The position numbers were made by a program, and so were the translations under genes. 64,000 bases of DNA from Candidatus Nomurabacteria bacterium (lineage in GTDB: Bacteria > Patescibacteriota > WWE3 > UBA101185 > UBA10185): assembly GCA_020631855.1 (NCBI GenBank), contig JACKGU010000002.1, positions 89,188 to 153,187 on the forward strand. The letters are read 5' to 3'. The stretch's first letter is position 1, and each line of letters begins with the position of its first letter. Below the pieces are notes generated by a model. The model was not told the DNA's origin. It saw only the letters and a program-made list of their open reading frames with translations, and did no database searches. Positions 21,029-39,462 of the stretch are shown in pieces.

Positions 21029-21101
21029 ATCTTACCACGGCTGCGAACTGTTGACGAAGTTTGAAACTATTATATAAATAATTGTGTTGAAAATCTAATA
21101 T

Positions 21102-21677: not shown

Positions 21678-21876
21678 ATTTGAATTATACCTTAGTTATT
21701 TTTTTTAAGGTTCAAACCTAATATTTCAATTTGATTTTATTGTTATGACAACATCTCGTTACATGTCCTATATACACATTGACCCGATTTGGCTATGTAA
21801 AAAAACACAAGAGTTCGAACTCTAATAAAAGCTTGTATTGCTTGGGTTAGACTTTGTTCCTGGTATTTTATCTCTT

Positions 21877-21909
21877 ACTGGCTGCGCAGAGCGGACGAAG
21901 TTAGAACCC
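21877..21909 (+). repeat. Degenerate tRNA-Gln 3'-end-like att repeat (a)
   Basis: ACTGGCTGCGCAGAGCGGACGAAGTTAGAACC. Compare the antisense of tRNA-Gln, TGGCTGGGGGACAGGGATTCGAACC. Confidence 0.45.
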
Positions 21910-21947
21910 ATATTATTGAAGAAAATATGTCTGTGGGCATACCAATA

Positions 21948-22466
21948 CTAGTGAGTGTTCAGTAGACTGCATACGACTTTGATTGCAGATTCCAAATCTT
22001 TATACGTACTTACCTTGAAGTTATTGTATTCTTTTGGAACGCCCCTTAGCATCCAGGAAAGTTTATCTAGGTTATCTTCATGTACTAAGCAGAGGATAGT
22101 GGTTTTATTTAAACCTCTTTCCTCTTTTAACAATGCTCTCATGATTTCCATACCAACTCCATGACTTGCCCCATCAACTACAGCAATTAGGTAATCAGCT
22201 TCATCGACCCAGTCCATATCTATTTTATATGCGCTTATCCAGGGGTCATTTGTACTAGGATTCCTTCTATCAATCCCAGTTTTTTCAAGAAAGATATCAT
22301 CTTGCTCATCATGGGTTCTTGCGGCTACATGTTCACTAAGTACATCGTAACCATTGCTCTTCATATACTGCACAAGCCCATAACTGAAATTTGGGTCTTT
22401 GTGCTTTATACCTTGAAGAGAACCAGAGAAGTATATTTTGCCTTTAGGGCTTGTATGTTTTGTCAT
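21948..22466 (-). CDS. Nucleoside 2-deoxyribosyltransferase-like protein
   Basis: 172 aa. KIYFSGSL ... AVVDGASHGVGMEIMRAL resembles the NDT/Rcl fold. Low certainty. Confidence 0.4.
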   Translation of the reverse strand: MTKHTSPKGKIYFSGSLQGIKHKDPNFSYGLVQYMKSNGYDVLSEHVAARTHDEQDDIFLEKTGIDRRNPSTNDPWISAYKIDMDWVDEADYLIAVVDGASHGVGMEIMRALLKEERGLNKTTILCLVHEDNLDKLSWMLRGVPKEYNNFKVSTYKDLESAIKVVCSLLNTH

Positions 22467-22794
22467 ATTTTTTGGTCTTTATCTTTGGGAGCTTTTTGTA
22501 GAAGTATTTCTCAATGTCAATGTTGGACTTATGCGCAAGCCTTAAAAGATAGAATAATACATCAACAAATTCATAACCAAGTTCTTCTTTATCACTTTTA
22601 CTTAATTTATCTATTTTGGAAAAATCATTTTGCCACTGATAATGTTCTGCTAGCTCTGCTAATTCAATCATTATTGAAGATATAAGCTGGTTGGGGTCGG
22701 TGTTGTTCCAATTTCTTTCATTGCATACTCTTATTACATCCTTCTCAATATCTTTTAGTGATTTTGACATGAGTTGATTATACACCAGGTTCAA
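22444..22794 (-). CDS. MazG-like nucleotide pyrophosphohydrolase
   Basis: ELAELAEHYQW ... EELGYEFVDVLFYLLRLA MazG motif. The track start is TTG; the probable ATG is at 22770 (MSKSLKD), with TATAAT 6 nt upstream. Confidence 0.65.
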   Translation of the reverse strand: MNLVYNQLMSKSLKDIEKDVIRVCNERNWNNTDPNQLISSIMIELAELAEHYQWQNDFSKIDKLSKSDKEELGYEFVDVLFYLLRLAHKSNIDIEKYFYKKLPKIKTKKYDKTYKP

Positions 22795-22985
22795 ACTTTT
22801 TTTGGGTCGAACTTTTGTAGGTGTAACAAAAGGACAAATCTTGACTGGGGAACAGGGAGTCGGTCACGAGTTCTCGCCTGCTGGCGATCCTCTCGACCCC
22901 AGCTCGATGCCGTCGCATCTGCGCTATTCTCCTCCAATTTCCTGTCAAGAAACTGCTCACCAGAACTTGTGCTGATGACCACTTC

Positions 22986-23016
22986 CCTGGCCGGGCGTTA
23001 GGGTCCAAGTTCGAGC
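22986..23016 (+). repeat. Degenerate tRNA-Gln 3'-end-like att repeat (b), inside a GC-rich ~220-nt noncoding island
   Basis: CCTGGCCGGGCGTTAGGGTCCAAGTTCGAGC. The surrounding 22800-23040 region is about 55% GC and has overlapping spurious ORFs on both strands. Confidence 0.45.
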
Positions 23017-23049
23017 AGCTTACTGTTGTTTCAATTTATAGACCTGGCT

Positions 23050-23415
23050 CTAGTAATATCCCCCGCCTGATATACTTGATACATGCATAAATATGTAATT
23101 GCCCACTTTATAAATGAAAAAACGTACAGCCCGAATTCCAAGTGAATAAGTGGCCTTTACACGTAACTTTATTAGGAATAAGTCCATCATAGATACACCG
23201 TCTATTTTTTGGAAGACGATACCAACTCTATCGTTTAGGGTTACAAGTTCTAGGGGTTCAGGTATTTGAACATTTTTACACTTATATATTGTTTTTGTTT
23301 TGAAGTACTCGTTTTGTATTTTTTCTTTTGGAAAGTCCTTATCATAAAGTTTCAAAATTGTATCTTTGGAATAGTCGTATATCTCAGATCTTCTGCCATG
23401 TGAAAGGATTTTCAT
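23050..23415 (-). pseudogene. Truncated phosphotransferase (APH/choline-kinase-like) N-lobe fragment
   Basis: RRSEIYDYSKDTILKLYDK ... VFQKIDGVSMMD resembles a kinase N-lobe, then degenerates. A 40-aa HAD-hydrolase N-terminal fragment (MIKAICFDLDGVYF) lies just upstream at ~23416-23540. Confidence 0.35.
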
Positions 23416-23501
23416 ATGAAATACCTAAATTTACTAACTCTTTTATAAAATTGGATTTACCGTTAACAAAGTAAACTCCATCTAGGTCGAAACATATTGC
23501 T

Positions 23502-24027
23502 TTAATCATTTTTATCCCTCAAAACTTTATATCTTAACTGCACTAGTTCATTGTCAATTTTTTTTGTACCAAGTAGCTGAAGTGATACATCAAAATCTGA
23601 TTTTCCAAACAGTGTTAAACCATTACCTATGACCAACGGGTGTACACTTAGTACAATTTCATCTATTAGGCCTGCTTTTAGAAACTGGCCGTTTGTATTT
23701 TCACCACCTATAATCAATAGGTTTTTAAAGCCTTTTTCTTTTGCGAAATCAACTATTTCATCTGTAGTGCCGTCTCTAATTGAAAGATTTTCTGTCTCTT
23801 TGTGTAAATCCTCGTTTGAGCTTAAAACAATATTAAACAAACCTTCTATTGGAAAATCATCAGAACCAAATTGTTCCATGGGTTTTTCTACCCATAATTA
23901 CTGCATCATTAGCTTTTATATAGGAGTAAAATTGATCCCAATCTAATTCTGAAACCCAATCACTATTGTTTTGACCTCTTGTTATATAACCATCTATTGA
24001 AGTAGCCATGTATAAAGTGATTTTCAT
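23502..24027 (-). pseudogene. RibD-C/DHFR-like reductase gene interrupted by a frameshift near 23880
   Basis: N-terminal MKITLYMATSIDGYITRGQNNSDW...VIMGRKT is in one frame (24027 to ~23885). The 125-aa ORF MEQFGSDD...LLIIGGENTNGQFLKAGLIDEI continues in another frame. Confidence 0.5.
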
Positions 24028-24030
24028 AAG

Positions 24031-25077: not shown

Positions 25078-25170
25078 AAGAACATTATATCATTCCTCAG
25101 TCCGCACTATTCTCGTCCCTGCCCAATAAAGCAAAACATCTTTGTATCTTACGACACAGGGATATTTTCC

Positions 25171-25200
25171 GTGGCTGGGCATTAGAGAACAAGTTCGAAC
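25171..25200 (+). repeat. tRNA-Gln 3'-end-like att repeat (c)
   Basis: GTGGCTGGGCATTAGAGAACAAGTTCGAAC. 29/30 identical to copy d. Shares TGGCTGGG and TTCGAAC with the tRNA-Gln antisense. Confidence 0.55.
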
Positions 25201-25212
25201 TTAAGTTTTGTT

Positions 25213-25884: not shown

Positions 25885-25924
25885 AGTTGTGAAGGTATTA
25901 TATCAATTTTTATGCAAAAGACCT

Positions 25925-25939
25925 CCCCCCCCCCCCCCC
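25925..25939. repeat. C15 homopolymer tract (G15 on the coding strand of the gene at 25884)
   Basis: 15 consecutive C. Lies 22 nt upstream of the -10 hexamer of the minus-strand gene. Confidence 0.85.
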
Positions 25940-26014
25940 TAGCGAGGCGGGAAACGCAAACCTTACAAATTGGCTGGCCGTAGCGTGCGACGTTAGAACT
26001 GTTTTTAGGAGTAA

Positions 26015-26458: not shown

Positions 26459-26459
26459 T

Positions 26460-27158: not shown

Positions 27159-27233
27159 ATTAAGTAATTATACCTTAGTTCGAATCCCTATTGGGTAGGG
27201 TCTGTTTTATGTTGTTTTGACAAGGAGATTTTA

Positions 27234-27263
27234 CTGGCTGGGCATTATAGAACAAGTTCGAAC
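27234..27263 (+). repeat. tRNA-Gln 3'-end-like att repeat (d)
   Basis: CTGGCTGGGCATTATAGAACAAGTTCGAAC. A sense-oriented GTTCGAATCCCT piece lies at 27176-27189. Confidence 0.55.
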
Positions 27264-27313
27264 TGCTGTATTGGTTTAGTTTCATTGTTTTATCCTTTTA
27301 GTATAATGCTTTT

Positions 27314-29167: not shown

Positions 29168-29224
29168 TAGTTCGAATTCCCTGATGGCCCATACTCGGAA
29201 ATGCTGTTGTTAACGGAAGAAAAT

Positions 29225-29245
29225 CCTGGCTGGAAGCCTGGCACA
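29225..29245 (+). repeat. Degenerate tRNA-Gln 3'-end-like att repeat (e), left boundary of the integrated element
   Basis: TCCTGGCTGGAAGCCTGGCAC, with AGTTCGAATTCCCTGATGGCCC at 29169-29190 (compare tRNA-Gln GGTTCGAATCCCTGTCCCCC). Confidence 0.4.
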
Positions 29246-29313
29246 CATACAGAATGGCTAATTGGCTTGATTTAATAAATGCCCCAGAGCTAGTTTATGC
29301 TTATGCCGAAAGC

Positions 29314-31026
29314 CTACTTGTTAAATAGTATCTTCTTTGAAAGAATAAAAACTTCGTCAAACCTCTTTTTAAGGAAATCATTACGAGGCTCTACTTCCCC
29401 AAATTTCAATGCAAGTAAAAAATGCTTCATAGGTTTATATTTGAATTCATTTCTCATAAGGCGATTAACAATTAAATCTCCAAACGAATACTCTGTATTA
29501 GTATAGGCTTCCATCATTTCAGTCTCTTCTGCGCTTAATATCGTTAATGATTCAACGTTTTTACCATTAAGATATTTATTATTTTCAATTAGTGGCAATA
29601 TCTCTTCAATCCAAATTAAGTCTGCTTGTGGGAAAGGGTTTATAGTTACTATTATTGGAACAAATGCCTTTATGTCTTTAGATTCAACTCCCTCTAATCT
29701 AAACTCTTTTCTTTTAAAGTCTTTTATACTTCTATCAATTTGCTTAACACTATTTAATACAATTTTCTCTAAATCTTTTCTGTAGCCTTCCAGGTCTCCG
29801 TTTATTGCGGTGTCTACCATTTTTAATTTTGAAGTGTTTATTTCAGCAAAAAAAGCAACATTTTTATATACAATTATAATATCTGATGTTTTTTTATGAC
29901 TTTTTCCATATGTTAATTCATTAAAAACCTTATATTCGTTATCATTACCCAACATCCTTTGGAACAAATTCTGTTCATACTCTTCGAAAAGTTCTCCATA
30001 GAATCGTGCAAGTCTATATCTTTCACTTTTTTCTAAAGAATCCCAAATGTCCCAAAATATCCCAGAAGAAATTCTTTCTTTTACAAAGCGAACACTTGTT
30101 GGCATATATACATCTTTACTTATCTTTATTAAAGGTTTTTGCCTAAGAGTTATGAAGTCATAAATCTTATTAGATGAGTCTAAAGAGTTGGATAATGTCA
30201 GTTTGTTAAGATATTTTATAGCCTTATATTTTGAATATTTGAGCTCGTTAAAATATACATTTTTGTTTATCTCAAAGTTATTCAAATCAATTTTGTCCTT
30301 ATAAATATTTACGTTTGCATAGTGGGCCAATAATGAAAAACCTAAAACATAGGCTTCTTCTAAGGTGTGATTCTTTGCTTTCTTGTATAGGGATTCTAAA
30401 TCTATATAATTTTCAGACTTTATAGCTCTGTCGCTTTTCGCAATATTAAAAAGTATTTCATAGTTTCTTGTAAATAAATATCTAAACTGCTCTGTAGAAT
30501 TAAAATATGCATTCCGAATAACTTCTTTTAATAGTGCATCTAATTGCAAGCGCCTATTGGGATTATCCATGTTTTTGTCGCTTTCATATTCTCTATTTAG
30601 CAGGTCACCGCAAGGGATGACACATTTTTTAAGGTATAAATCAAAGTTAGCTGTGTCGTTTAATTTCTTCTTAGCATATGGATTGCCGTGTTCCAATGTA
30701 AGTTTAATTAGGTGAAGTAATTGCTGTTCGAAGAAGAGAAATCTATCTGGGCTTGATTTGAAAACCTTTAATATTTTGCTTTTATCCTGTTCATTGTGAA
30801 ATAGTTCGTTTATTAAACCGTGTTGTAGCTCTCTATTCATATGTCCATGATTTTCCAACACATTTCCTAATTTACATGTTGCAGCTAATACTTCTCGTTT
30901 ATTAAGAGATTTAATTGTTTTTATAACCTCTTGCTCTGTGATTTCCTCGTTAAATATATCTCTATATGGCATCATAATCGCAAAGCCGTCACTGAGTGTA
31001 TAGTTTTTGTTGTTACTTAGAGGCAT
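29314..31026 (-). CDS. Large hypothetical protein (570 aa) co-transcribed downstream of the LexA-like gene
   Basis: Overlaps the lexA-like stop by 14 nt. No recognisable catalytic motif. Confidence 0.5.
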   Translation of the reverse strand: MPLSNNKNYTLSDGFAIMMPYRDIFNEEITEQEVIKTIKSLNKREVLAATCKLGNVLENHGHMNRELQHGLINELFHNEQDKSKILKVFKSSPDRFLFFEQQLLHLIKLTLEHGNPYAKKKLNDTANFDLYLKKCVIPCGDLLNREYESDKNMDNPNRRLQLDALLKEVIRNAYFNSTEQFRYLFTRNYEILFNIAKSDRAIKSENYIDLESLYKKAKNHTLEEAYVLGFSLLAHYANVNIYKDKIDLNNFEINKNVYFNELKYSKYKAIKYLNKLTLSNSLDSSNKIYDFITLRQKPLIKISKDVYMPTSVRFVKERISSGIFWDIWDSLEKSERYRLARFYGELFEEYEQNLFQRMLGNDNEYKVFNELTYGKSHKKTSDIIIVYKNVAFFAEINTSKLKMVDTAINGDLEGYRKDLEKIVLNSVKQIDRSIKDFKRKEFRLEGVESKDIKAFVPIIVTINPFPQADLIWIEEILPLIENNKYLNGKNVESLTILSAEETEMMEAYTNTEYSFGDLIVNRLMRNEFKYKPMKHFLLALKFGEVEPRNDFLKKRFDEVFILSKKILFNK

Positions 31027-31633
31027 GCCTTAGAAGTCCCAGAAATTTTCCTCTAATTTCTAGTTCCTTGGGATAAATATTGTTTAGTTCTGGATTTCTT
31101 GGTTCCAGTCTTATCTCACCCCTTTGTTTGTAAAATCTCTTAAGTGTTGCCCCGTTTTCTGTAATGGCTACAACGGTTTCCCCATTTTCTGCTGTATTTT
31201 GATGTTTTACTAACACAATATCTCCATCAGCAATACCATCATCAATCATACTGTTTCCAGATACTTTTAAGGCATAACACATCTCCGGTCTTCTAGGTAA
31301 CATAGTGGAAGGAACATCTATCGGCTCTGGAATCTCAACTGGTTCAATACCTGGACCCGCAGAGATAGTTCCTAGTAATGGTATTTTTATGAGTTCACTA
31401 CCTGTATTAAGCAATTTAATGCCTCTATTCAATGTAGTTTTTTTTATGTAACCTTTTTCTTCCAAAGCATCTAAATATTGAGCCACAGAGGAATCTGATT
31501 TGTAACCAAATTGTTCCGCTATTTCCTTATATGTGGGGCAAAATCCATGTTTAACAAAATGTTTTTCGAGGAAATCTAAAATATCTTTTTGCTTTGGAGT
31601 TAGAGGCAATTTTTCTTGACCTTTGTAATCCAT
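31013..31633 (-). CDS. lexA: LexA-type repressor (N-terminal winged-HTH plus C-terminal S24 peptidase Ser-Lys dyad)
   Basis: 206 aa. GNSMIDDGIADGDIVLV (catalytic Ser) and ATLKRFYKQRGEIRLEPRNPE (Lys), collinear with E. coli LexA. A TACTCGTA-TAA-TACTCGTA direct repeat and TATTAT lie 6 nt upstream of the ATG. Confidence 0.7.
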   Translation of the reverse strand: MDYKGQEKLPLTPKQKDILDFLEKHFVKHGFCPTYKEIAEQFGYKSDSSVAQYLDALEEKGYIKKTTLNRGIKLLNTGSELIKIPLLGTISAGPGIEPVEIPEPIDVPSTMLPRRPEMCYALKVSGNSMIDDGIADGDIVLVKHQNTAENGETVVAITENGATLKRFYKQRGEIRLEPRNPELNNIYPKELEIRGKFLGLLRHASK

Positions 31634-31744
31634 ACTCGTATAATACTCGTAATTAGTCCAACAGTCAAATGGACAAAAAAGGCAACAGACTTTCTTGCCC
31701 GTTGCCCTTCTTACGTACTTTAAGTTTATTAGTTAAGCAGATAT

Positions 31745-32011
31745 ATGGCAAGAGTATATGCGGAAAGGCATGTTATGGCAAAACAAATACACGTTACGCA
31801 TAACAAAGAAACCGGAAGGTGGCAAACCAGAGATGCCGGGTCGAAAGACGTTAATTCATCTCATAGAACAAAGGATTTAGCAGTCGAAAGAGCAGTTCGT
31901 GATGCAAAACAAACTCGCTCTGAGGTATTTATCCATAATAAAGATGGAAAGATATCTGATAGGGATAGTTATGGTAATGACCCTAGAAGTGTCAAAGACA
32001 GGGTTCATTAA
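31745..32011 (+). CDS. DUF2188-like small protein
   Basis: GRWQ ... IHNKDGKISDRDSYGNDP matches the DUF2188 pattern. Divergent from lexA. Confidence 0.5.
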   Translation: MARVYAERHVMAKQIHVTHNKETGRWQTRDAGSKDVNSSHRTKDLAVERAVRDAKQTRSEVFIHNKDGKISDRDSYGNDPRSVKDRVH

Positions 32012-32098
32012 TTAGTTTCTTTTGACTGTTGGCTAATTTCTATTCAGAATAGAGTTCATATGCTTATTTATAAAATTATATGATGTATTATAAAAACT

Positions 32099-33031
32099 AT
32101 GCGAGAAAATATTAAACTCATATCCCTTTTTAGTGGGTGTGGGGGCACAGATTTAGGATTTGAAGGTGGTTTTACTTTTAATTCAAAAAAATATGAAAAA
32201 TTACCTTACGATTTAGTTTGGGCAAATGAGATAAATAGTAAAGCCTGTATTACTTTTAAGGAAAACCTTAAAAAGGATATAGTCTGTGATGATATATGGA
32301 ATGTTGATTTAGATACACTACCCGATGCAGATATAGTTACTGGTGGTTTTCCATGCCAAGACTTTAGTGTTGCCGGATTACGTAAAGGATTTAACTCTAA
32401 AAGAGGCCTTTTATATTTGGCAATGCTTAATGTTGTAAATAAAGTTAAGCCAAGAGTTTTTGTTGCTGAGAATGTTAAGGGTTTGTTATCCATGGACAAA
32501 GGATGTGCTATTCAGAAGATAGTTTCAGATTTTTCACAAGCTGGTTCTGGCTATAAAGTCACAACACACCTATTAAAAGCCCCTGATTATGGGATTTCTC
32601 AAACAAGAGAGCGTGTTTTAATCGTAGGGGTAAGGTCTGATATTAATATGAATTTTGAACCTCCAGTACCAACTACATTAGATACACCTGTTCCTGTTTC
32701 AGATATATTAAGAGATTTGGAAGACCTAGCTGAGGGAGACATACCTAATCATTATTGGTCAAAAGCGAAACTATATCCAGGTAGACAAGGAAACATTACA
32801 ATAGACCCGAGTAAACCGGGCCCAACGATGAGAGCCGAACATCATGGGAACATAGAATTCCACTATAATAAGGGTAGAAGGTTAAGTGCACGTGAAGCTG
32901 CTAGGATACAGTCTTTTCCCGATGAATTTATATTCTATAATTCAACTTCTGATGCCTATCGCCAGATAGGTAATGCAGTACCCCCTGTATTAGCCTGGCA
33001 TATTGCAAAAACATTACTCCCATTTTTTTAA
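32099..33031 (+). CDS. DNA (cytosine-5)-methyltransferase
   Basis: 310 aa. Motif I FSGCGG, motif IV GFPCQDFS, ENV, C-terminal QIGNAVPP. Confidence 0.9.
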   Translation: MRENIKLISLFSGCGGTDLGFEGGFTFNSKKYEKLPYDLVWANEINSKACITFKENLKKDIVCDDIWNVDLDTLPDADIVTGGFPCQDFSVAGLRKGFNSKRGLLYLAMLNVVNKVKPRVFVAENVKGLLSMDKGCAIQKIVSDFSQAGSGYKVTTHLLKAPDYGISQTRERVLIVGVRSDINMNFEPPVPTTLDTPVPVSDILRDLEDLAEGDIPNHYWSKAKLYPGRQGNITIDPSKPGPTMRAEHHGNIEFHYNKGRRLSAREAARIQSFPDEFIFYNSTSDAYRQIGNAVPPVLAWHIAKTLLPFF

Positions 33032-33088
33032 GAATAGTGCTTAGATTCTTTTGATGTTAGACTTGTAACAGTAGGACATTTTACTGTT

Positions 33089-34201
33089 ATGGCTAATTTA
33101 AGAACATCTTTAAGAGAATTAAGCTTCATCTATGGGCTAATTGCCCATGATTTTTCTGTGCCCAAATTTAAGGACTTCTGTAGTACCCTAGCTGATAATG
33201 GTATTGAACATGGCTTAGAATCTAAAGATTCAGTTTTTTATAGCAAAGTTGTTTTTGACCAAATTGTAAAAAATGGTATACGACTAGGAATATTTGTAAG
33301 AGATAATTTGAAAATAACTAAAATAGATACTCTTAACTGGACTGGAAATGATACTCAATCAGATACTCCTTACGATGTAATCGTTAACAATATTCCAATT
33401 TCACTTAAAGAGGACAGTTTTATCTTAGAAAATATGGGCTTATATAAATTACTTTCTCTATTAACTGAAAACACTTATAAAAGAGGCGAGGTACACATTT
33501 TCAAGAAATTTGCCCCAAGAGAGTATGAAGAATGGTTTGATGTTGCTTGGCACAGTATGTTCTATAAAATAAGGAGACATGGTCCTTGGGTATATAAAGG
33601 TAAAGGATACACATCTACAATAAAAGAACAGGATAATAAAATAGTATTTATCTATAAATCACCCGAAAAGACACTGAGTTGCAGTCTTCCCTTCAAGTCG
33701 TACGTCTCTTTAGATGAGTTTGAAAAAGAAACAAATTCAATTCTTAGAGAAAAAGTTTTTTCAAAATGGATTTCTAGTATTGGGGCATATGTAGGGGAAT
33801 ATAAGGTTTATAAGAATATTTGTTCTACGAAGGCGGGTGAGGAATTGACCAAATTTATACATAAAAACATTAAGGTTGAATCCTTTTCTAGAATTTTTAG
33901 AATTTTGGAAACACCTTATTATTATGCAAAAGTTACAAATAATAGTATGGAATTATATAAAGTTCCAGGGAAACAAGATTTTAAGAATAACTTTGAAATT
34001 ATGGCATTTGAATATTCAGTGCCCTCATCACAATTAAACCTATTAACTACGATAAAAAACATTAAACTAGGCACCGAAATAACTTTTAGAAATGAATTAC
34101 GTTTTTCACATGGTCAGTTTAATGGTACTCCAGAAGCAAAATTATACTACACAAAAGACTCAAGCTTAGAAGCAATATACGAATTAGTCGCTACTCAATA
34201 A
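33089..34201 (+). CDS. Hypothetical protein, candidate cognate restriction endonuclease
   Basis: 370-aa ORF 57 nt downstream of the MTase on the same strand. No detectable motif. Called by position only. Confidence 0.3.
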   Translation: MANLRTSLRELSFIYGLIAHDFSVPKFKDFCSTLADNGIEHGLESKDSVFYSKVVFDQIVKNGIRLGIFVRDNLKITKIDTLNWTGNDTQSDTPYDVIVNNIPISLKEDSFILENMGLYKLLSLLTENTYKRGEVHIFKKFAPREYEEWFDVAWHSMFYKIRRHGPWVYKGKGYTSTIKEQDNKIVFIYKSPEKTLSCSLPFKSYVSLDEFEKETNSILREKVFSKWISSIGAYVGEYKVYKNICSTKAGEELTKFIHKNIKVESFSRIFRILETPYYYAKVTNNSMELYKVPGKQDFKNNFEIMAFEYSVPSSQLNLLTTIKNIKLGTEITFRNELRFSHGQFNGTPEAKLYYTKDSSLEAIYELVATQ

Positions 34202-34236
34202 TATTTCCTGATATAATCAAATAGTAATTAAACACA

Positions 34237-34322
34237 GCTTGGCAGCTTTACTTAAACATGCTTAAAAAAGCAATGGACCCATGAAGGGGCAACCTTTCCA
34301 TAGGGTCTATTGCTGCCAAGCT
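34237..34322. repeat. Nested inverted repeat (multi-layer hairpin)
   Basis: Outer CAGCTTGGCAGC/GCTGCCAAGCTG, inner CAATGGACCC/GGGTCTATTG, innermost GAAGG/CCTTT. Lies 3' of the putative REase gene. Confidence 0.6.
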
Positions 34323-34546
34323 GTGGATACCGGAAGGTTGTCCCTTTATGTTTGGAATAAAAAGCATTAAAACGAAATATTTTGACTTCATTTTCTATTG
34401 GCTATATCAAATGCCACTTTATACTCCAAAACTCAATATAACGTGTTCTGGGACTTCTGGTAGCTATATTTTTTCTACTCTGTCTCAGATATTTAGCGTG
34501 GTTGAGCCAATAAGTATAAATTTCTATAAATTAAGGAATAAAGAAA

Positions 34547-34867
34547 ATGAATAAAAAAGAACAAATTGCATGCCCTAAGTGTGGTCAGTTTAGAGTTGTG
34601 ACTAAAGATACTGCTTCTGCAGCGTTGTTCGGCATTGGTTGTATGTACTTAACGCTTGTCCCAATTATAGGGATAGTTTTAAGTTTGATTGGTTTAGGTA
34701 TTTTTGGTTTGGTTATTGGTTTTGCATTAGGTATTGGTTTATTAATCTCTGCATTAGTTAAGAAAACAAAAGGAAAAGCCACATTTACCTGTCTTAATTG
34801 TGGTTATAAGTGGGAACCTGTACTAGATAAAGCAAATAATTCCAAGGGGAATAAAAATAAACAATAA
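34547..34867 (+). CDS. Zinc-ribbon membrane protein
   Basis: CPKCG ... two TM helices ... CLNCG. Confidence 0.45.
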   Translation: MNKKEQIACPKCGQFRVVTKDTASAALFGIGCMYLTLVPIIGIVLSLIGLGIFGLVIGFALGIGLLISALVKKTKGKATFTCLNCGYKWEPVLDKANNSKGNKNKQ

Positions 34868-35210
34868 TAAAGTTAGGCAACCTGAATTTTTAGCTAACTT
34901 ATCTGCACTGATAGTGGTTCTATTGTAAACTTTGTTATAGATAGCTTTTTTTGGATTGGTAACAATCCCCATTCCTCTTGGGACTCTAACTTTGGAACGA
35001 ACCATTCTTTTTACAGATGTTCTTGCTGATAGTCTTCTTTTTAATGAGGGTGTTCTAACGCCAAATTTCATATCTAAATTATATACATATATGTTTGAAA
35101 TGTCAGAAAAATTGTGTGTGAAATGAGAGAAAATGAAGGGGTTATTTTTTGTATAAAGTGGCAGAAATGACAAAAAAACAGGGGGTACAAATTAATAAAA
35201 CCTTAGAGAA

Positions 35211-35882
35211 ATGAGAGAAAGTAAGTGGTTTGTTTTCATCATATCCTTGTACCTAAATATTGTAGTAACAATAAATACCTTAATGTCACAGCACATTTTT
35301 AAGATATCGTACTTTAATTACATGAAACATGTAAATGAAGATACAAAACATAATATATTAGATGAAGTTTTTTCCTTTGAAGATAAAACAAAGAACGATA
35401 TATATTTCGCAGATGACCGAAGATTTAAAATATATTCTGGTTTTACTAAGCTTTATCATGCTTTAGCTCATGCCATTTTGGCTGATAATACTCTTACTGC
35501 CAGAGAGATTAAGGTATTACTTCTATATATTAGGGTCGGATATGGTTGCCAAGTTAGGGATGAGTACGGTGTGAAGAAACACGCTAGAAGCGTATATTTT
35601 TGTCCAAAAGAAGTATCAAAAATTTTAAATTATAGAACAAATGATGTTTCAAAAGTTTTTAAGTCTTTGTTTGATAAAGGTTGGTTTGATTTTTTGTATT
35701 ACAAAGAAACAGGCAGAACAAAAATTCACCCACAAATAGTTGATAATGTACTAGATGTAAAAACAGGTGCAGGTTGGGATGAAACGTTTAATATTGAACT
35801 TAGAAATGTAATTTCTAGAAATCTAGGGTTCAATCTGGTACCTGTTATCTATTCAAAAGACCCTTTCAAGTTACTCAAATAG
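35211..35882 (+). CDS. Hypothetical protein (possible winged-helix/replication-like, weak)
   Basis: 223-aa ORF in the integrated element. The probable start is an internal Met (MKHVNEDTK). Confidence 0.35.
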   Translation: MRESKWFVFIISLYLNIVVTINTLMSQHIFKISYFNYMKHVNEDTKHNILDEVFSFEDKTKNDIYFADDRRFKIYSGFTKLYHALAHAILADNTLTAREIKVLLLYIRVGYGCQVRDEYGVKKHARSVYFCPKEVSKILNYRTNDVSKVFKSLFDKGWFDFLYYKETGRTKIHPQIVDNVLDVKTGAGWDETFNIELRNVISRNLGFNLVPVIYSKDPFKLLK

Positions 35883-36150
35883 TTTTAATACATATACCAT
35901 TAAAAAATATGATATTCCCTAATACATGATTTATGCAGGTTTTGCAGACATATTTACATTTATTAAGTATCAGTTAACGAGAATTACGCAATATTTTACT
36001 TGAAACGTGTAATTTTTAAGATTTATTTGCTTTAAAAACAGCCAAAAAGCATGGTTAGTATATAAAAAAGATAAGTAAAATAGTTTATGTATAGATAGTA
36101 AGATGAAGAGTTGTAAAAATGTAAAAACATGGAAGGTATAATGTGTTTAG

Positions 36151-37098
36151 ATGAAAAATGTAGATGAAATTAAATCAAGGAAACCAACATGGTCACTTTC
36201 TGAGGTAATGATAAAGTCTGGATTGTTTAGTGAAAAAGGTGTTACTTGGTATAAGGATAAACCAGAAACTGATAGAGATGTATTAATTAGAAGCTATTGG
36301 GATTTAGTATACAAATCTGGCATGTTAGATTTCCTTATAAAACGTGAGAGAGAAGTTTTAGGTATACCAAACAATCTACGTGCTTTAAGAAGAAAGTTTC
36401 CTTTAGTGGCTTATAGAACTGATATAGGTGACCCAAACGAAGTAAATCTTGAACAAGGTATTGATAACTATCATGGTTATTATGGAAGAGACCCTAAGCT
36501 AGTAGCATCAATTGATGATAGTGTTAATAGAATTTTGGATGATTCAAAACTTCCGCCAATGTATTTCAAGGTAGTGCTATTTTTATTACTACGGGGGCAA
36601 CTAATTAAAGATGGTGAACTTTTTTTCTATACACGGTTAATGGACTCTATAGCTTTAAAAGAGGACTATGATAAACGTATCTATAACCATTTTACTCAAA
36701 ATGAATTTATTCAATATGCCGGATTTTACTTAATGGCTATTTCAACAAAACTTACAAAACAAGATTTTAGAGAAAGAATGTCCAATTTGGAAAAAGTAAT
36801 ACCTAATTTTAATAGAAAATATCGTCCAATTAGAAAATGGAATACTTACTACAAAATAATTAAGGTTATATTGAAAAGTTATAATATTGAACAAAAAACA
36901 AATCATGGGGAATCGGATAGCATGAGTGAAGGTTTAATGCATACGAGTAAATCTTTGATTTATGATTTATGTAATAAAGATTTAACTAAAGAACAGGAAC
37001 AAAGAGAAGCCTATAAATTGCGAAAAGACATTGAACGCCTCAAAAAAGAATACCCATTCCTAGTCGAAATGTTCCCTCACCTACAACAAAAAGCTTAA
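36151..37098 (+). CDS. Hypothetical protein
   Basis: 315-aa ORF, no recognisable motif. Confidence 0.4.
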   Translation: MKNVDEIKSRKPTWSLSEVMIKSGLFSEKGVTWYKDKPETDRDVLIRSYWDLVYKSGMLDFLIKREREVLGIPNNLRALRRKFPLVAYRTDIGDPNEVNLEQGIDNYHGYYGRDPKLVASIDDSVNRILDDSKLPPMYFKVVLFLLLRGQLIKDGELFFYTRLMDSIALKEDYDKRIYNHFTQNEFIQYAGFYLMAISTKLTKQDFRERMSNLEKVIPNFNRKYRPIRKWNTYYKIIKVILKSYNIEQKTNHGESDSMSEGLMHTSKSLIYDLCNKDLTKEQEQREAYKLRKDIERLKKEYPFLVEMFPHLQQKA

Positions 37099-37136
37099 TG
37101 TCACAACCCTAAATTTTTAAGCTGTAAGCTGATGGC

Positions 37137-37400
37137 ATGAATATGAAATCATGCCTAACAAATGAAGACCCTAATATCTTTTCAACAAGTGATTTGCATT
37201 TAGCAATTTCCTTATCTTTTTTTCACAATATTGTTGGATTAGATAATTCATCACCAAACAGAATCAAATTTCTTTTTGATTACTCTGCATCTCTAGAAAA
37301 AACAATTGAAGATTATTGGAATGGAAAACTCCTAGTAGACCCAAAAGGTTTTAGTAATAAATTATCCGAGTTCAAAACTCGTATTCGAACAGGTCTTTGA
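37137..37400 (+). CDS. Hypothetical small protein
   Basis: 87-aa ORF. Confidence 0.3.
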   Translation: MNMKSCLTNEDPNIFSTSDLHLAISLSFFHNIVGLDNSSPNRIKFLFDYSASLEKTIEDYWNGKLLVDPKGFSNKLSEFKTRIRTGL

Positions 37401-37401
37401 A

Positions 37402-37569
37402 ATGGAGCTAAGTAGTAATTTAGTTAACGAATTGAAACAGATTCTCAAAGAAGAGTTTGGATTGGACTTAACATCCGAGCAAATTTTGGCTCTTGGTTCA
37501 AACCTAACCCAACTTTTTGAGGCTTTGTTAGAGATTGTTACTAAGAAAGGAAGTGATTCAAACATGTGA
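37402..37569 (+). CDS. Small helical protein (55 aa) immediately upstream of the integrase; candidate recombination directionality factor
   Basis: ATG at 37402; MELSSNLVNELKQILKEEFGLDLTSEQILALGSNLTQLFEALLEIVTKKGSDSNM. Not in the track (<60 aa). Confidence 0.3.
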   Translation: MELSSNLVNELKQILKEEFGLDLTSEQILALGSNLTQLFEALLEIVTKKGSDSNM

Positions 37570-37646
37570 AACCCAAGTCAAATGCTACTTACAAAGTAGC
37601 CCATGCGTTGCATTATGTAATAAATTGATATGAAAGTAATATTGAA

Positions 37647-39308
37647 ATGAAAAAATACGAAAATAAAACAGCTGTTATCCTCTGCCGAGTAAGTTCAAAA
37701 GAACAAGAAAAAGAGGGTTATTCTCTACCTTCCCAAGAAAAATTGTTAAAAAGTTATAGCGATAAAGAGAAGCTAAATGTTGTTAAGACTTATACGTTCT
37801 CTGAATCTGCTAGAGCCTCTTCTGAAAGGGTGTATTTTAAGCAAATGATGGAGTATGTAAAAAAGCAAAACATACACGTTATTGTTTGTGAAAAAGTAGA
37901 CCGCGCAACTAGAAATTTAAAAGATACTCAGGTTTTATACGATTGGCTAGAGGGCAACCCAGATAGACAAATACACTCTGTAAAAGATTCAATTGTTCTA
38001 CATAAAAACTCTAAATCTCAGGAAAAGCTAAATTGGGATATTAGAGTAATTTTTGCAAAGAACTATGTAGATAACCTATCTGAGGAAGTTAAAAAAGGTC
38101 AAATTGAAAAGCTAGAGAAAGGTTGGTTACCTACAAGTCCTCCTTTAGGTTATAAGACAATTGGTGAGGAAGGTAAAAGAATTCATATTCCAGATGAAGC
38201 CACAAAGCACTTTGCTAAAAGTCTTTTCGAACTATATGGAAGTGGTACCTATACATTATCTCAATTAGTGGATTTATTGTTTGAAGAGGGCCTTAGAACA
38301 CCGACTGGTAAAAAATACTCAAAGAGTATGCTTTATAGATGTTTACAGAATCCTTTTTATATTGGTTACAACAGATGGAATGGAAATGATTTTCCAGGTA
38401 ATCAAGAAACATTTATTAGCCCATCTTTATATGAAACTGTTCAATCAAGACTAAAAAGAAATGGTTCTCAAAAATTCATTAAACATAACCACTTATTGCG
38501 TAGCATGGCTGTCTGTAAAGAATGTGGAGGAACAATTACATGGGAACTAAAGAAAGGAACTGTCTACGGCCATTGTGGTCGTAGGCAGGGCTGTTCCCAA
38601 ACAAAATGTGGTAAAGAACATGAATTTGAAGAAAAGATTATAAATGAGATGGAAAATCTAGTAATCAAGAATAAACGTGTCTTAGATTGGGTAAGCAAAG
38701 CTCTTAAAGAGAATCACAAAGATGAAATTAATGCCTACAACTACTCGGTTGAAGAATTAACTAAACAAGAAGAAAAAATAACAGAAAGACTTAGCCAAAT
38801 TTACGATGATAAGTTAGATGGCAAGATAGATGAGTCTTTTTATAACTTAAAAATGGAACAATACACCACTGAAAGAACTGAAATTCAAAAACAAAGGACA
38901 AGATTAGCAGATAGAAACACAAAGTATTATGAGATAGGTTCCCTAATATATGATATCGCTCAAAATGCGCCAAAGATTTATAAAGAGTGTAAAGATGTTG
39001 ATAAAAAGAGAAAAATTTTAGGAATAATCTTCAGAACTTTTCAACAAGAAAATGGCGAACTTGTAGAATTGCAGTTATCAAAGCCTTTTGAAACGCTCAA
39101 AAAAGCAGTAAGTATTACTAACAGTTCGAACTTGGTTAAAAATGAGGAGTTGCAAAAAGAGATTTTAGAACTCGGGGATTTTGTTGCTGTGGAAGCAAAT
39201 AAAGAGTCTTTTTCTGATGATTGTTCTCCATGGCTGGGGGACAGGGATTCGAACCCCAATTTTCGGGACCAAAACCCGACGTGCTACCCTTACACCATCC
39301 CCCAATGA
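37647..39308 (+). CDS. Large serine recombinase (integrase)
   Basis: 553 aa. N-terminal resolvase catalytic domain (AVILCRVSSKEQ), recombinase domain, zinc ribbon CKECGG...CGRRQGCSQTKCG, coiled coil. The last ~25 codons are antisense to tRNA-Gln. Confidence 0.85.
   Translation: MKKYENKTAVILCRVSSKEQEKEGYSLPSQEKLLKSYSDKEKLNVVKTYTFSESARASSERVYFKQMMEYVKKQNIHVIVCEKVDRATRNLKDTQVLYDWLEGNPDRQIHSVKDSIVLHKNSKSQEKLNWDIRVIFAKNYVDNLSEEVKKGQIEKLEKGWLPTSPPLGYKTIGEEGKRIHIPDEATKHFAKSLFELYGSGTYTLSQLVDLLFEEGLRTPTGKKYSKSMLYRCLQNPFYIGYNRWNGNDFPGNQETFISPSLYETVQSRLKRNGSQKFIKHNHLLRSMAVCKECGGTITWELKKGTVYGHCGRRQGCSQTKCGKEHEFEEKIINEMENLVIKNKRVLDWVSKALKENHKDEINAYNYSVEELTKQEEKITERLSQIYDDKLDGKIDESFYNLKMEQYTTERTEIQKQRTRLADRNTKYYEIGSLIYDIAQNAPKIYKECKDVDKKRKILGIIFRTFQQENGELVELQLSKPFETLKKAVSITNSSNLVKNEELQKEILELGDFVAVEANKESFSDDCSPWLGDRDSNPNFRDQNPTCYPYTIPQ
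39231..39304 (-). tRNA. tRNA-Gln (anticodon UUG)
   Basis: Sense: TGGGGGA-TG-GTG-TAAGGGTAG-CAC-G-TCGGG-TTTTGGT-CCCGA-AAAT-TGGGG-TTCGAAT-CCCTG-TCCCCCA-G-CCA. U1-A72 is typical of Gln. CCA is encoded. Confidence 0.85.
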
Positions 39309-39462
39309 ATACATAAATACCCGAATATTATAACATCAAGTTATTGTTTTTAGCTATAACAGTCATCTTTCGCCAGCCTCAAGTACTTTAAATGCAAATA
39401 TAGCCTCTTGGTAGTGCTTTCAGTACGGTGTAATTTCTCTCTGATCTGTGTAGAATATTTGT

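What the first reader, a model, noticed from the sequence alone, without database searches (positions are those of the whole stretch)
21800..39310. Five tRNA-Gln 3'-end-like direct repeats partition 17.5 kb into modules ending at an intact tRNA-Gln: serial integration at one tRNA
The plus strand at the tRNA-Gln gene reads CCATGGCTGGGGGACAGGGATTCGAACC, the antisense of the CCA and acceptor plus T-arm. Related direct repeats occur at about 21877 (ACTGGCTGCGCAGAGCGGACGAAGTTAGAACC), 22986 (CCTGGCCGGGCGTTAGGGTCCAAGTTCGAGC), 25171 (GTGGCTGGGCATTAGAGAACAAGTTCGAAC), 27234 (CTGGCTGGGCATTATAGAACAAGTTCGAAC, 29/30 identical to the previous copy) and 29225 (TCCTGGCTGG...). A weaker echo, TCCTGGCCGG, sits at 20354. 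Each lies at a boundary between small gene modules of 2 to 3 genes, mostly on the minus strand: nucleotide-sanitising genes (MazG-like, NDT-like, Nudix, kinase), SDR, AKR and so on. The last repeat borders the 10-kb element carrying the integrase. Sense-oriented T-arm fragments (GTTCGAATCCCT at 27176, AGTTCGAATTCCCTG at 29169) accompany them. Module b-c contains decayed genes, namely APH-like and HAD fragments and a frameshifted RibD-C. This is the signature of repeated site-specific insertions at the tRNA 3' end, with the older modules eroding.
Basis: seen in the sequence. Interest (0 to 1): 0.75.

Follow-up and report, generated by a model that had tools for sequence, protein, structure and literature searches.

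The report
Serine-integrase cassette stack at tRNA-Gln
Next to a glutamine tRNA gene, seven blocks of foreign genes have piled up one after another, each marked by the orphaned tail end of a serine-integrase gene that imitates the tRNA's 3' end; the newest block is a complete 10-kb element that is still moving between hosts.

Summary
The repeats are real: six same-strand copies of a 29-nt unit, found only between 21,038 and 27,263. Shuffles predict 0.22 copies. Its fifth copy (29,225) is only a 7-nt core, and its echo at 20,354 is unsupported.

They are not decayed copies of the local tRNA. Read from TGG on the + strand, they encode the C-terminal tail of large serine recombinases (LSRs). In this LSR clade attP lies inside the integrase gene's 3' end. 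Integration therefore leaves the tail (the P' arm) at attL, and the gene body then reads into the antisense tRNA.

The T-loop-like heptamer sits 22 nt from TGG in every intact tail-type P' copy scored, and 17 nt from TGG in every CCA-encoding tRNA-Gln or tRNA-Asn target. This is the published 5-bp attP/attB shift.

The tRNA-proximal unit (29,227-39,230; 10,004 bp) is an intact LSR element. It is absent from a sister genome, and it is joined to a different tRNA-Gln elsewhere.

The six older units (0.8-2.2 kb) carry cargo but no integrase, and how they lost or lacked it is unresolved. The same motif forms similar arrays in many candidate phyla.

Serial integration at one tRNA is supported in substance. 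It is a new variant of a known kind.

The parts
39231..39304 (-). Intact tRNA-Gln(UUG). Its 3' end (CCA, acceptor and T arm) is the B' half of the attachment site.
   Evidence: ARAGORN. Rfam tRNA, 59 bits. The T-loop heptamer TTCGAAC starts 17 nt from TGG.
39231..39237 (+). attR core TGGCTGG of the 10-kb element. The crossover lies within these 7 nt.
   Evidence: Three-way alignment of the window, the L001 empty site and L108. Identity switches exactly at this core.
29227..29233 (+). attL core TGGCTGG of the 10-kb element.
   Evidence: The empty site in L001 reads ...GAAAATCC TGGCTGG GGGACAGGG. The window reads ...GAAAATCC TGGCTGG AAGCCTGG.
29227..39230 (+). Unit 7: an intact 10,004-bp LSR integrative element. 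Genes: a 570-aa unknown protein, a LexA/S24 repressor, DUF2188, a C5 DNA methylase, a 370-aa unknown protein, a RepO-like protein, a 315-aa unknown protein, DUF5659 and the LSR. GC is 0.323.
   Evidence: Absent from L001. Pfam and PHROGs annotations. GC.
37647..39308 (+). Large serine recombinase gene in its integrated form (553 aa). The last 25 codons read through the antisense tRNA-Gln (WLGDRDSNPNF...).
   Evidence: Pfam Resolvase plus Recombinase domains. Translation. Fifty-two of 120 homologues end the same way.
29227..29328 (+). P' arm of unit 7. It holds the 33 tail codons (WLEAWHTYRMANWLDLINAPELVYAYAESLLVK*) that would complete the LSR in the excised circle.
   Evidence: Joining 39230 to 29227 gives an open 561-aa ORF. 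The tail matches the 'W-x-x-W-D-D-F-R-T...PEL' tails of homologues P0010 and P0045 (E about 0.02) and P0002 (E 0.15), each weak on its own.
27235..27263 (+). P' copy c6 (WLGIIEQVRTAVLV*). It is the left end of unit 6 (27235-29226), which carries a 168-aa ORF, an AAA_33 kinase and a cupin-Nudix protein.
   Evidence: 29.0 bits. Heptamer at offset 22. Pfam.
25971..25999 (+). It is the left end of unit 5 (25971-27234), which carries a 147-aa ORF and an SDR.
   Evidence: 26.4 bits. 61.5% identity over 13 aa to the tail of LSR P0117 (E 1.9, not significant on its own). Pfam.
25172..25200 (+). P' copy c4 (WLGIREQVRT*). It is the left end of unit 4 (25172-25970), which carries a 223-aa ORF of unknown function.
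   Evidence: 27.7 bits. Identical over 29 nt to copies in L074 and L105.
22988..23016 (+). P' copy c3 (TGGCCGG...GTTCGAGC; WPGVRVQVRA), degenerate. It is the left end of unit 3 (22988-25171), which carries a truncated kinase-like ORF, a HAD fragment, a frameshifted RibD_C and an intact aldo/keto reductase.
   Evidence: 17.2 bits. Pfam. Reading of the intergenic sequence.
21879..21907 (+). P' copy c2 (WLRRADEVRTHIIEENM...; 28 open codons). It is the left end of unit 2 (21879-22987), which carries an NDT-like and a MazG-like gene.
   Evidence: 27.2 bits. The tail resembles P0087 LLRAIDAIRTCIMQEDV (E 6.5, not significant on its own). Pfam.
21038..21066 (+). It is the left end of unit 1 (21038-21878), which carries a transglutaminase-like gene.
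   Evidence: Only 8.5 bits, E 0.47. Heptamer at offset 22.
29169..29226 (+). Right end of unit 6. It starts with AGTTCGAATTCCCTG and ends ...GTTGTTAACGGAAGAAAATCC. The same about 60-nt end occurs before cores in L074/L105 and L009. It may be a P-arm or LSR 3'-end relic.
   Evidence..NAVVNGRKS|WL versus ..NVVVIGRKP|WL. Calling it a relic is inference only.
27177..27234 (+). Right end of unit 5. It starts with AGTTCGAATCCCT and has the same 58-nt geometry. It is homologous to an end in L104.
   Evidence: TLVRIPIG*GLFYVVLTRRFY|WL versus TSVRIPTG*HWFYVVVTMIYY|WL.
39121..39136 (+). AACAGTTCGAACTTGG inside the LSR gene (codons TNSSNLV). Read on the minus strand it matches the distal part of the P' motif.
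   Evidence: nhmmer 13.1 bits, E 0.016 on the minus strand. The peptide TN(S/G)SK is conserved in homologues. Its function is unknown.
37137..37400 (+). DUF5659 gene just upstream of the LSR. The same pairing is seen in related elements.
   Evidence: Pfam 1.4e-06. DUF5659 occurs next to LSRs in L086 and L106.

Best explanation
The stretch 21,038-39,304 is a stack of units inserted at the 3' end of tRNA-Gln by elements that use large serine recombinases (LSRs).

In this LSR clade the crossover site of attP lies inside the recombinase gene, about 25-35 codons before its stop. The P' arm of attP therefore doubles as the gene's C-terminal tail. P' imitates the target: it begins with TGGCTG (the antisense of the tRNA's ...CAGCCA end) and carries a T-loop-like TT(C/A)GAAC.

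That heptamer lies 22 nt from TGG in P' and 17 nt from TGG in the tRNA. This is the 5-bp outward shift of the zinc-ribbon-domain motif that distinguishes attP from attB half-sites.

Integration (attP x attB) places the recombinase body against the tRNA, where its ORF runs on into the antisense tRNA. The orphaned tail (P') ends up at the far end of the element, at attL. Each new arrival at the tRNA pushes older units outward, so every unit begins, on the + strand, with TGGCTG plus an orphan tail.

What is shown:
- The repeat family is real.
- It is homologous to LSR tails.
- The +5 geometry holds.
- The unit next to the tRNA is an intact 10,004-bp element, polymorphic between genomes and present in a second host.
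- Tandem LSR elements exist in other genomes in which the next element's P' completes the upstream recombinase.

What is inferred:
- The six recombinase-less units (0.8-2.2 kb) are what remains when a recombinase-bearing element leaves or loses its recombinase-proximal part. For example, excision might pair attR with a different upstream X-core-P' junction, dropping or picking up cargo.
- The central dinucleotide is the TG of TGGC-TG-G.
For: Repeat family:
- Six copies, one strand, one 6.3-kb stretch, against 0.22 expected.
- A pattern scan of 185,579 species genomes gave 77 loci, against about 17 expected by my own estimate. Hits are mostly Saccharibacteria and other Patescibacteria, low-GC 'Actinomycetota' MAGs, Atribacterota, WWE3 and WOR-1. 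Copies are often several per contig on one strand.
- Conservation stops abruptly at TGG and decays over about 80 nt on the other side.

Tail homology:
- Copies translate to WLAIANEVRTRII.SD.DIFIPELSF*, WLGIVDDVRTIIQRQQEYIYIPDL and WLGIREQVRTAVLV*.
- LSR homologues end in ...WLRIVDDVRTIIRRQNEYVYIPDLSRIS (P0082) and ...LLRVADDVRTYFKTTKDYFYIPKLVSP (P0117).
- Of the 120 best homologues, 21 have such tails and 52 read into antisense tRNA (..DSN..).
- The motif profile hits the 3' end of the P0082 gene at 22.3 bits, E 1.9e-05.

Geometry:
- The heptamer is at offset 22 in every intact tail-type P' scored: five of the six window copies (c3 carries a mutated TTCGAGC at that position) plus L086 and L107. 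It is at offset 17 in all seven CCA-encoding tRNA-Gln and tRNA-Asn targets.
- Rutherford et al. 2013 describe the ZD motif at positions 16-24 in attP and 11-19 in attB (PMC3783163).

Activity:
- Empty site in L001.
- The identical LSR is joined at TGGCTGG to another tRNA-Gln and flank in L108.
- The ORF stays open across the rebuilt attP.

Tandem stacking elsewhere:
- L086 and L107.
- In L099 a P' copy lies 7 kb upstream of an LSR.

Link to tRNA-Gln:
- tRNA-Gln lies upstream on the same strand in L033, L066, L070, L080, L093 and L105. That is 6 of the 13 tRNAs found near copies.
Against: - The P' arm of the window's own 10-kb element matches the TT(C/A)GAAC motif poorly (ACAGAAT at offset 22). 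The resident recombinase may therefore not be the one that served the older units.
- No LSR with the exact WLGIREQVRT.VLV tail was recovered.
- The older units hold no detectable recombinase remnant.
- Sequences to the left of the cores are not conserved across 104 junctions, and there is no extended dyad symmetry. The way recombinase-less units arise is therefore not established.
- L095 has four copies in 2.9 kb. That is hard to explain by random decay of four 10-kb elements.
- No DNA binding or recombination was tested.
Confidence: 0.75

Rival explanations
1. The recombinase-less units are autonomous cassettes in the integron sense. Each would be a small circle carrying one recombination site (core plus P'), captured at the tRNA-Gln end by a recombinase supplied in trans. 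The tRNA end would play the part of attI.
For: - Units are small, one to three genes each, and lie in one orientation. Each has its own TATAAT-like box.
- L095 has four copies in 2.9 kb.
- Many arrays in the 77 loci have no LSR within 4 kb.
- The 29-nt unit is identical between window c4 and L074/L105 although the cargo differs.
- Some right ends of about 60 nt are conserved between genomes.
Against: - Known LSRs need two half-sites on each partner and do not recombine attL-type sites without a directionality factor (PMC3783163).
- Left arms are unconserved overall.
- No circular junction was observed.
- The loci examined are only 8 kb, so a recombinase could lie just outside them.
Confidence: 0.2
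2. The repeats are decayed duplicates of the local tRNA-Gln 3' end, left as target-site repeats by classical tRNA-targeting integrases.
For: They share TGGCTGG(G) and TTCGAAC with the tRNA, and they have the same orientation as the tRNA gene.
Against: - All copies share the same 5-nt extra spacing.
- Copies match those of other phyla better than they match the adjacent tRNA.
- They encode LSR tails.
- The only demonstrable event shares just 7 nt with the target.
- A tblastn probe with IntI1 found no tyrosine recombinase in the window.
Confidence: 0.03
3. The array is an integron cassette array without an integrase (a CALIN), and the 29-nt unit is the R''-L'' half of attC sites.
For: - The layout is ORF followed by repeat.
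- GTTCTAAC resembles RYYYAAC.
- Three window junctions fold into imperfect hairpins (z -2.1 to -3.2).
- IntI-like fragments lie near copies in L073, L019 and L018.
Against: - There is no excess of an R' complement downstream in 88 copies (6.48 versus 6.52 and 6.59 of 10 in controls).
- RNAalifold finds no pairs in 42 aligned copies.
- There is no IntI in the window.
- The conserved block is fully accounted for by LSR tail codons.
Confidence: 0.03
4. The motif is a chance or regulatory intergenic signal (a terminator or promoter element) unrelated to mobility.
For: It lies in intergenic DNA just 3' of minus-strand genes, and TATAAT boxes lie nearby.
Against: - 0 of 100 shuffles reach the observed count.
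- It is absent from the other 57 kb of the window.
- It is present inside LSR genes elsewhere.
- There is no Rfam match.
Confidence: 0.01

Closest known systems
Large serine integrase systems (LI/A118, Bxb1, phiC31): attP/attB half-site architecture
   Same: - The recombinase has Resolvase plus Recombinase domains.
- The shared core is short.
- A distal motif lies 5 bp closer to the crossover in attB than in attP (PMC3783163). This is exactly the 22 versus 17 offsets seen here.
   Different: - The target is the 3' end of a tRNA gene.
- attP lies inside the integrase ORF, so the enzyme's C-terminal 25-35 residues are exchanged on integration.
- Only the tRNA-side half-sites (B' and P') are visibly conserved.
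- No directionality factor was identified.
Tycheposons and tRNA-anchored genomic islands of Prochlorococcus (Hackl et al., bioRxiv 10.1101/2020.12.28.424599)
   Same: - Elements integrate at tRNA genes.
- New arrivals push older ones into the island.
- Remnants and repeat fragments are scattered through the island, and cargo is left behind.
- A minority of these elements use large serine recombinases.
   Different: - There the markers are partial tRNAs and mostly tyrosine recombinases. Here the markers are element-derived integrase tails with a fixed +5 spacing.
- The host lineage is different.
- No homology between the elements was tested.
SCCmec composite islands and pseudo-SCC elements; CIME accretion in streptococcal ICEs (from my own knowledge, not checked in the library)
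   Same: - Serine recombinases (CcrAB) insert elements at the 3' end of one conserved gene.
- Tandem stacks are delimited by direct repeats of the integration site.
- Some units lack recombinase genes and are thought to be moved in trans.
   Different: - The target is rlmH rather than a tRNA.
- The repeats are copies of the target's 3' end, not of the recombinase gene's tail.
- The recombinase family branch and the hosts are different.
Integrons (IntI, attI, attC cassettes)
   Same: A one-directional array of small promoter-poor or single-gene units, each ending in a related recombination sequence, growing at one fixed end.
   Different: - There is no tyrosine integron integrase.
- There is no attC hairpin.
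- The repeat is conserved in sequence rather than in structure, and it is derived from a serine recombinase gene.

Membership tests
Large serine recombinase integrative element (unit 7, 29227-39230) | Encodes a recombinase with an N-terminal Resolvase catalytic domain and a Recombinase domain (and usually a zinc ribbon) | tested here: met
   Resolvase 1.3e-17 and Recombinase 5.3e-14. Zn_ribbon_recom was not detected in this protein but is recorded for many homologues at 45-50% identity.
Large serine recombinase integrative element (unit 7, 29227-39230) | Discrete insertion with an unoccupied site in a relative and only a short shared core | tested here: met
   L001 lacks the 10,004 bp and reads straight across TGGCTGG. 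L108 has the same end joined to another host's tRNA-Gln.
Large serine recombinase integrative element (unit 7, 29227-39230) | attP and attB half-sites carry the same distal motif, 5 bp closer to the centre in attB | tested here: inconclusive
   For the family the feature is met: offset 22 in every intact tail-type P' scored against 17 in all CCA-encoding tRNA targets. Unit 7's own P' has only ACAGAAT at that position. Protein binding cannot be tested here.
Large serine recombinase integrative element (unit 7, 29227-39230) | Recombination directionality factor for excision | not tested
   No candidate was identified. DUF5659 lies next to the LSR in three elements, but its function is unknown.
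LSR attP P' arm / orphan integrase tail (the six repeats) | Sequence homologous to the 3' end of intact LSR genes, in frame from the TGG core | tested here: met
   The motif profile hits the P0082 gene's 3' end at 22.3 bits. Peptide matches to the tails of P0082, P0117 and P0087.
LSR attP P' arm / orphan integrase tail (the six repeats) | Found at the recombinase-distal end of elements whose LSR abuts the target tRNA | tested here: met
   Window unit 7. L099 has P' at 6288 and an LSR at 13315-14844. L086 and L107 are tandems. For the six window units themselves no LSR is present.
Integron / CALIN | attC: R'' and R' inverted boxes and a conserved imperfect hairpin | tested here: not met
   No enrichment of an R' complement. 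No consensus pairs in 42 copies. IntegronFinder's own attC model was not available.
Integron / CALIN | Integron integrase (IntI) adjacent to the array | tested here: not met
There are fragments only in L073, L019 and L018.
Classical tRNA-fragment direct repeats of tyrosine-integrase islands | Repeat is a colinear copy (typically 15 nt or more) of the target tRNA's 3' end | tested here: not met
   Only 8 plus 7 nt are shared, and they are separated by 5 extra nt in every copy.
Tycheposon | Homologous integration and replication modules shared with the Prochlorococcus elements | not tested
   Only the organisational resemblance was compared.

The most novel reading that the evidence does not exclude
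The orphan-tail arrays are a serine-recombinase counterpart of the integron. It would be a cross-phylum system (Patescibacteria, Atribacterota, low-GC actinobacterial MAGs and others) in which one- to three-gene cassettes, each tagged by a tRNA-mimicking P' half-site, are captured, stacked and redistributed at tRNA-Gln or tRNA-Asn. The LSR elements would act as shuttles. The integrase's own C-terminus would switch with integration state as a built-in sensor of that state.
Probability: 0.2. Interest if true: 0.85.

Novelty: new variant of a known kind. Interest (0 to 1): 0.6.

Why it matters
Stacking of mobile DNA at tRNA genes is well known. Three points go beyond that.

1. The markers of the stack are pieces of the integrase gene itself. 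attP sits inside the gene, so integration swaps the enzyme's C-terminus for antisense-tRNA codons, and excision or a neighbouring element restores it.

2. The element's site imitates the tRNA's 3' end with exactly the 5-bp offset that structural work on LI integrase predicted for attP versus attB. This gives a natural, sequence-only confirmation of that model across hundreds of sites. It also offers a simple rule for predicting att sites of uncultivated LSRs, which is of practical interest for genome engineering.

3. The same 29-nt tag delimits short recombinase-less gene units in many candidate phyla with tiny genomes. In those organisms the routes of gene gain are poorly understood. The tag therefore offers a way to find and count recently acquired genes in such genomes.

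Tried and rejected
- attC/integron reading. I tested for a downstream R' complement and for a consensus structure. Both were negative. Single-sequence folds gave hairpins for three of eight junction stretches only.
- Known RNA families. Rfam scans of the window region and of nine array loci found nothing except the tRNAs.
- Coding test by entropy. Three-base periodicity in the conserved block was weak. The coding origin became clear only from the LSR C-termini.
- A 26-aa tail could not be searched because the minimum query is 40 aa.
- The viral-contig scan gave four hits, all one unrelated phage sequence without an LSR.
- Synteny through the flanking ExoIII failed. The nearest relative outside the species is 55% identical and sits on a 2.6-kb contig.
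- The search for recombinase remnants inside the six older units found tails only.
- Tests for dyad symmetry and for a conserved left (P) arm showed only the internal TGGC|TG|GCCA dyad.
- Shared cargo between arrays is weak. Only a transglutaminase-like gene (36%), a kinase-like fragment (51%) and a Nudix gene (33%) matched.
- My first shuffle pattern had the wrong spacing and was redone.

Full report
**What is in the window.** ARAGORN finds tRNA-Gln(UUG) at 39231-39304 and tRNA-Val at 40492-40568, both on the minus strand.

Repeat finding and a loose pattern show one family of 29-nt units at 21038, 21879, 22988, 25172, 25971 and 27235. All six are on the + strand, and there are none elsewhere in the 64 kb. 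The pattern GGCYGSN12AMGTTMGAAC with up to two mismatches gives these 6 sites. Dinucleotide shuffles expect 0.22, and none of 100 shuffles has more than one (an earlier attempt had the wrong spacing).

It also added two sites that are not family members. One is 29225, which shares only TCC-TGGCTGG. The other is 20354, which scores nothing with a family profile.

The units sit just 3' of minus-strand genes. They divide 21.0-29.2 kb into six blocks of 0.8-2.2 kb:
- a transglutaminase-like gene;
- NDT-like plus MazG-like genes;
- a truncated kinase-like ORF, a HAD fragment, a frameshifted RibD_C and an aldo/keto reductase;
- a 223-aa unknown ORF;
- a 147-aa ORF plus an SDR;
- a 168-aa ORF, an AAA_33 kinase and a cupin-Nudix protein.

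**The block next to the tRNA is a live element.** The aldo/keto reductase was looked up by exact sequence. That returned a 629-kb contig (L001, GCA_020631795.1) with the same six blocks in the same order, but with the Nudix gene directly beside tRNA-Gln.

The three junction sequences are:
- L001 empty site: ...GAAGAAAATCC TGGCTGG GGGACAGGGATTCGAACC
- window, 29227: ...GAAGAAAATCC TGGCTGG AAGCCTGGCAC
- window, 39231: ...GATTGTTCTCCA TGGCTGG GGGACAGGG

So 10,004 bp (29227-39230) were inserted at the CCA/acceptor end of the tRNA, with only a 7-nt shared core.

The element encodes a 553-aa large serine recombinase (Resolvase plus Recombinase domains), a LexA/S24 repressor, a C5 methylase, a RepO-like protein, DUF2188 and DUF5659. 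A 2.2-kb contig from another assembly (L108) carries a recombinase 100% identical over the gene body. It is joined at the same TGGCTGG to a tRNA-Gln with five substitutions and an unrelated flank. The element has therefore entered at least two hosts.

**What the repeats are.** I first considered integron attC sites, because the layout is cassette-like and three junctions fold into imperfect hairpins.

A scan of one genome per species with GTTCKAACKTSKN8GSSCAGCCA returned 77 loci. By my own estimate about 17 would arise by chance. The hits are dominated by Saccharibacteria and other Patescibacteria, low-GC 'Actinomycetota' MAGs, Atribacterota, WWE3, WOR-1 and Dehalococcoidales. Copies are often several per contig, on one strand, 0.6-3.8 kb apart and downstream of same-strand ORFs.

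The attC features fail, however:
- In 88 copies the best complement to the putative R'' box downstream is no better than in controls (6.48 versus 6.52 and 6.59 of 10).
- RNAalifold predicts no pair in 42 aligned copies.
- Rfam finds nothing.

Conservation has a knife-edge at TGG and fades over about 80 nt on the other side. Read from TGG on the window's + strand, the copies translate to related peptides with no ORF upstream of the W:
- WLAIANEVRTRII.SD.DIFIPELSF*
- WLGIVDDVRTIIQRQQEYIYIPDL...
- WLGIREQVRTAVLV*

**The recombinase supplies the explanation.** The window recombinase ORF runs through the antisense tRNA (...DDCSP WLGDRDSNPNF...). Joining 39230 to 29227, as in the excised circle, keeps the frame open. 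It gives a 561-aa protein ending WLEAWHTYRMANWLDLINAPELVYAYAESLLVK*.

Among the 120 best homologues (45-50% identity, largely Patescibacteria), two groups stand out:
- 52 end in W/L-L-x-x-x-D-S-N, which is antisense T-loop.
- 21 have an uninterrupted tail with [VFY]-R-T at the same distance from the W/L-L codons.

The uninterrupted tails include P0082 (...WLRIVDDVRTIIRRQNEYVYIPDLSRIS) and P0117 (...LLRVADDVRTYFKTTKDYFYIPKLVSP). These are the peptides encoded by the repeat family.

At the DNA level, the 3' end of the P0082 gene reads TGGCTCCGAATTGTGGACGATGTTAGAACC. A profile of the repeats finds it at 22.3 bits, E 1.9e-05.

The repeats are therefore the P' arms of LSR attP sites. They are the orphaned last codons of integrase genes, left at attL when the gene body is carried to the tRNA side.

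**Geometry.** In the six intact tail-type P' copies that pass the test (five of the six window units, plus L086 and L107), the heptamer TT(C/A/T)G(A/T)A(C/A) starts 22 nt from the T of TGG. Window copy c3 carries a mutated TTCGAGC at that position and fails the pattern. Unit 7's own P' arm has only ACAGAAT there. In all seven tRNA targets with an encoded CCA (five tRNA-Gln and two tRNA-Asn) the heptamer starts at 17 nt.

Rutherford et al. (PMC3783163) showed for LI integrase that the zinc-ribbon-domain motif occupies half-site positions 16-24 in attP and 11-19 in attB. That is a 5-bp shift toward the centre. If the central dinucleotide is the TG of TGGC-TG-G, the numbering fits exactly. This TG lies within the 7-nt core defined by the empty site. 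It is also the axis of a short TGGC|TG|GCCA dyad in the family.

That the heptamer is the ZD motif, and that TG is the crossover, are inferences.

**Stacking elsewhere, and the link to tRNA-Gln.** In L086 and L107 two LSR elements lie in tandem. The upstream recombinase is completed by the next element's P', and the downstream one reads into the tRNA, which in L106 and L107 is tRNA-Asn. In L099 a P' copy lies 7 kb upstream of an LSR, the same layout as unit 7.

Of the 13 tRNA genes found near copies in 54 loci, six are tRNA-Gln. All six are upstream of the copy and on the same strand (L033, L066, L070, L080, L093, L105).

**What remains open.**
- The six older window units contain no recombinase remnant beyond the tails.
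- Across 104 junctions the DNA left of the core is unconserved (about 0.1 bit per position).
- Subsets do share about 60-nt right ends. Window 29169-29226 matches ends in L074/L105 and L009, and window 27177-27234 matches an end in L104.
- L095 has four copies in 2.9 kb. Units this small are unlikely to be random wrecks of 10-kb elements.

Two mechanisms fit. In the first, excision pairs attR with a different upstream X-core-P' junction, so that elements drop or pick up cargo blocks. In the second, true recombinase-less cassettes are moved in trans. I could not distinguish them.

Unit 7's own P' matches the heptamer poorly. It may therefore not be the enzyme that served the older units.

**Erosion and composition.**
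- RibD_C is split over two frames here and in all related contigs.
- A FDLDGV HAD fragment is visible at 23416-23501.
- The kinase-like ORF is about half the length of its L025 homologue and has no Pfam hit.
- Profile scores of the P' copies are lowest for c1, the copy furthest from the tRNA, but they are not monotonic.
- GC is 0.32-0.39 in the units against 0.38-0.39 in the flanks.

**Comparison with known systems.** Serial integration at tRNAs, with remnants scattered through an island, is described for tycheposons. From my own knowledge it is also known for classical genomic islands, SCCmec composite islands and CIME accretion.

The variant here has four features:
- an LSR clade whose attP lies inside its own gene;
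- a tRNA-mimicking P' arm with the canonical +5 shift;
- orphan integrase tails as array markers;
- wide occurrence of short recombinase-less units in candidate phyla.

Six literature searches did not turn up a description of this. The library is incomplete, and absence of a hit is weak evidence.

Noticed in passing
window 25925-25939: A homopolymer C15 tract lies between units 4 and 5. The same tract is 10-12 nt in the otherwise near-identical contigs L001, L002, L005 and L007. It is either a length-variable tract or an assembly or sequencing artefact.
   Followed up: partly
L073 1257-1418; L019 1479-1820; L018 1300-1410: IntI-like or tyrosine-recombinase fragments lie within 1-2 kb of orphan-tail copies. 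The L073 fragment is 55% identical to IntI1 over 54 aa. LSR-tail arrays and integron remnants may share the same hypervariable regions.
   Followed up: partly
alignment A1 columns about 1-35 (e.g. L024:6097-6216:-, L045:3607-3726:+): About a third of the 'Actino-type' copies carry a second conserved block, TAAATAGTGAGTAGCA(C/T)GGT(A/G)GGGTAA. It has stop codons in all three frames and lies about 10-30 nt beyond the tail's stop codon. Its function is unknown.
   Followed up: no
L071, L075, L079, L084 (about 60-100 nt 3' of the main copy, motif orientation): A second, variant copy (GGTTCGAAATTTCG(C/T)AACCCGGGCCAGCCA) follows the first in direct orientation. Some junctions therefore carry two tandem sites.
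   Followed up: no
window 21678-21700, 25078-25100, 25885-25910, 27159-27180, 29140-29168 (minus strand): Each unit has a (G)GTATAAT or GATATAAT box 10-25 nt upstream of its first minus-strand gene. The units appear to bring their own promoters.
   Followed up: no
window 39121-39136, and LSR homologues P0004-P0120: The conserved LSR peptide TN(S/G)SK/N is encoded by AACAGTTCGAAC. This is an inverted copy of the distal P' motif, about 95-110 nt before the crossover. Similar AGTTCGAAT strings lie 58 nt before the cores at 27235 and 29227. It could be an accessory binding site or a coincidence of coding.
   Followed up: partly
L106 and L107 (tRNA-Asn at 11621-11695 and 11564-11638): Sister LSRs (46-48% identical) target tRNA-Asn(GUU) with the core TGGCTC. 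Their tails are of the WLARWDDFRT type. Target switching between tRNAs ending ...AGCCA seems to track the first 6-7 nt of P'.
   Followed up: partly
window 19322-20110: The flanking exonuclease III has no close relative in 5.8 billion proteins outside this species cluster (next best 55%, then 46%). The left 'flank' of the array may itself be acquired DNA.
   Followed up: no
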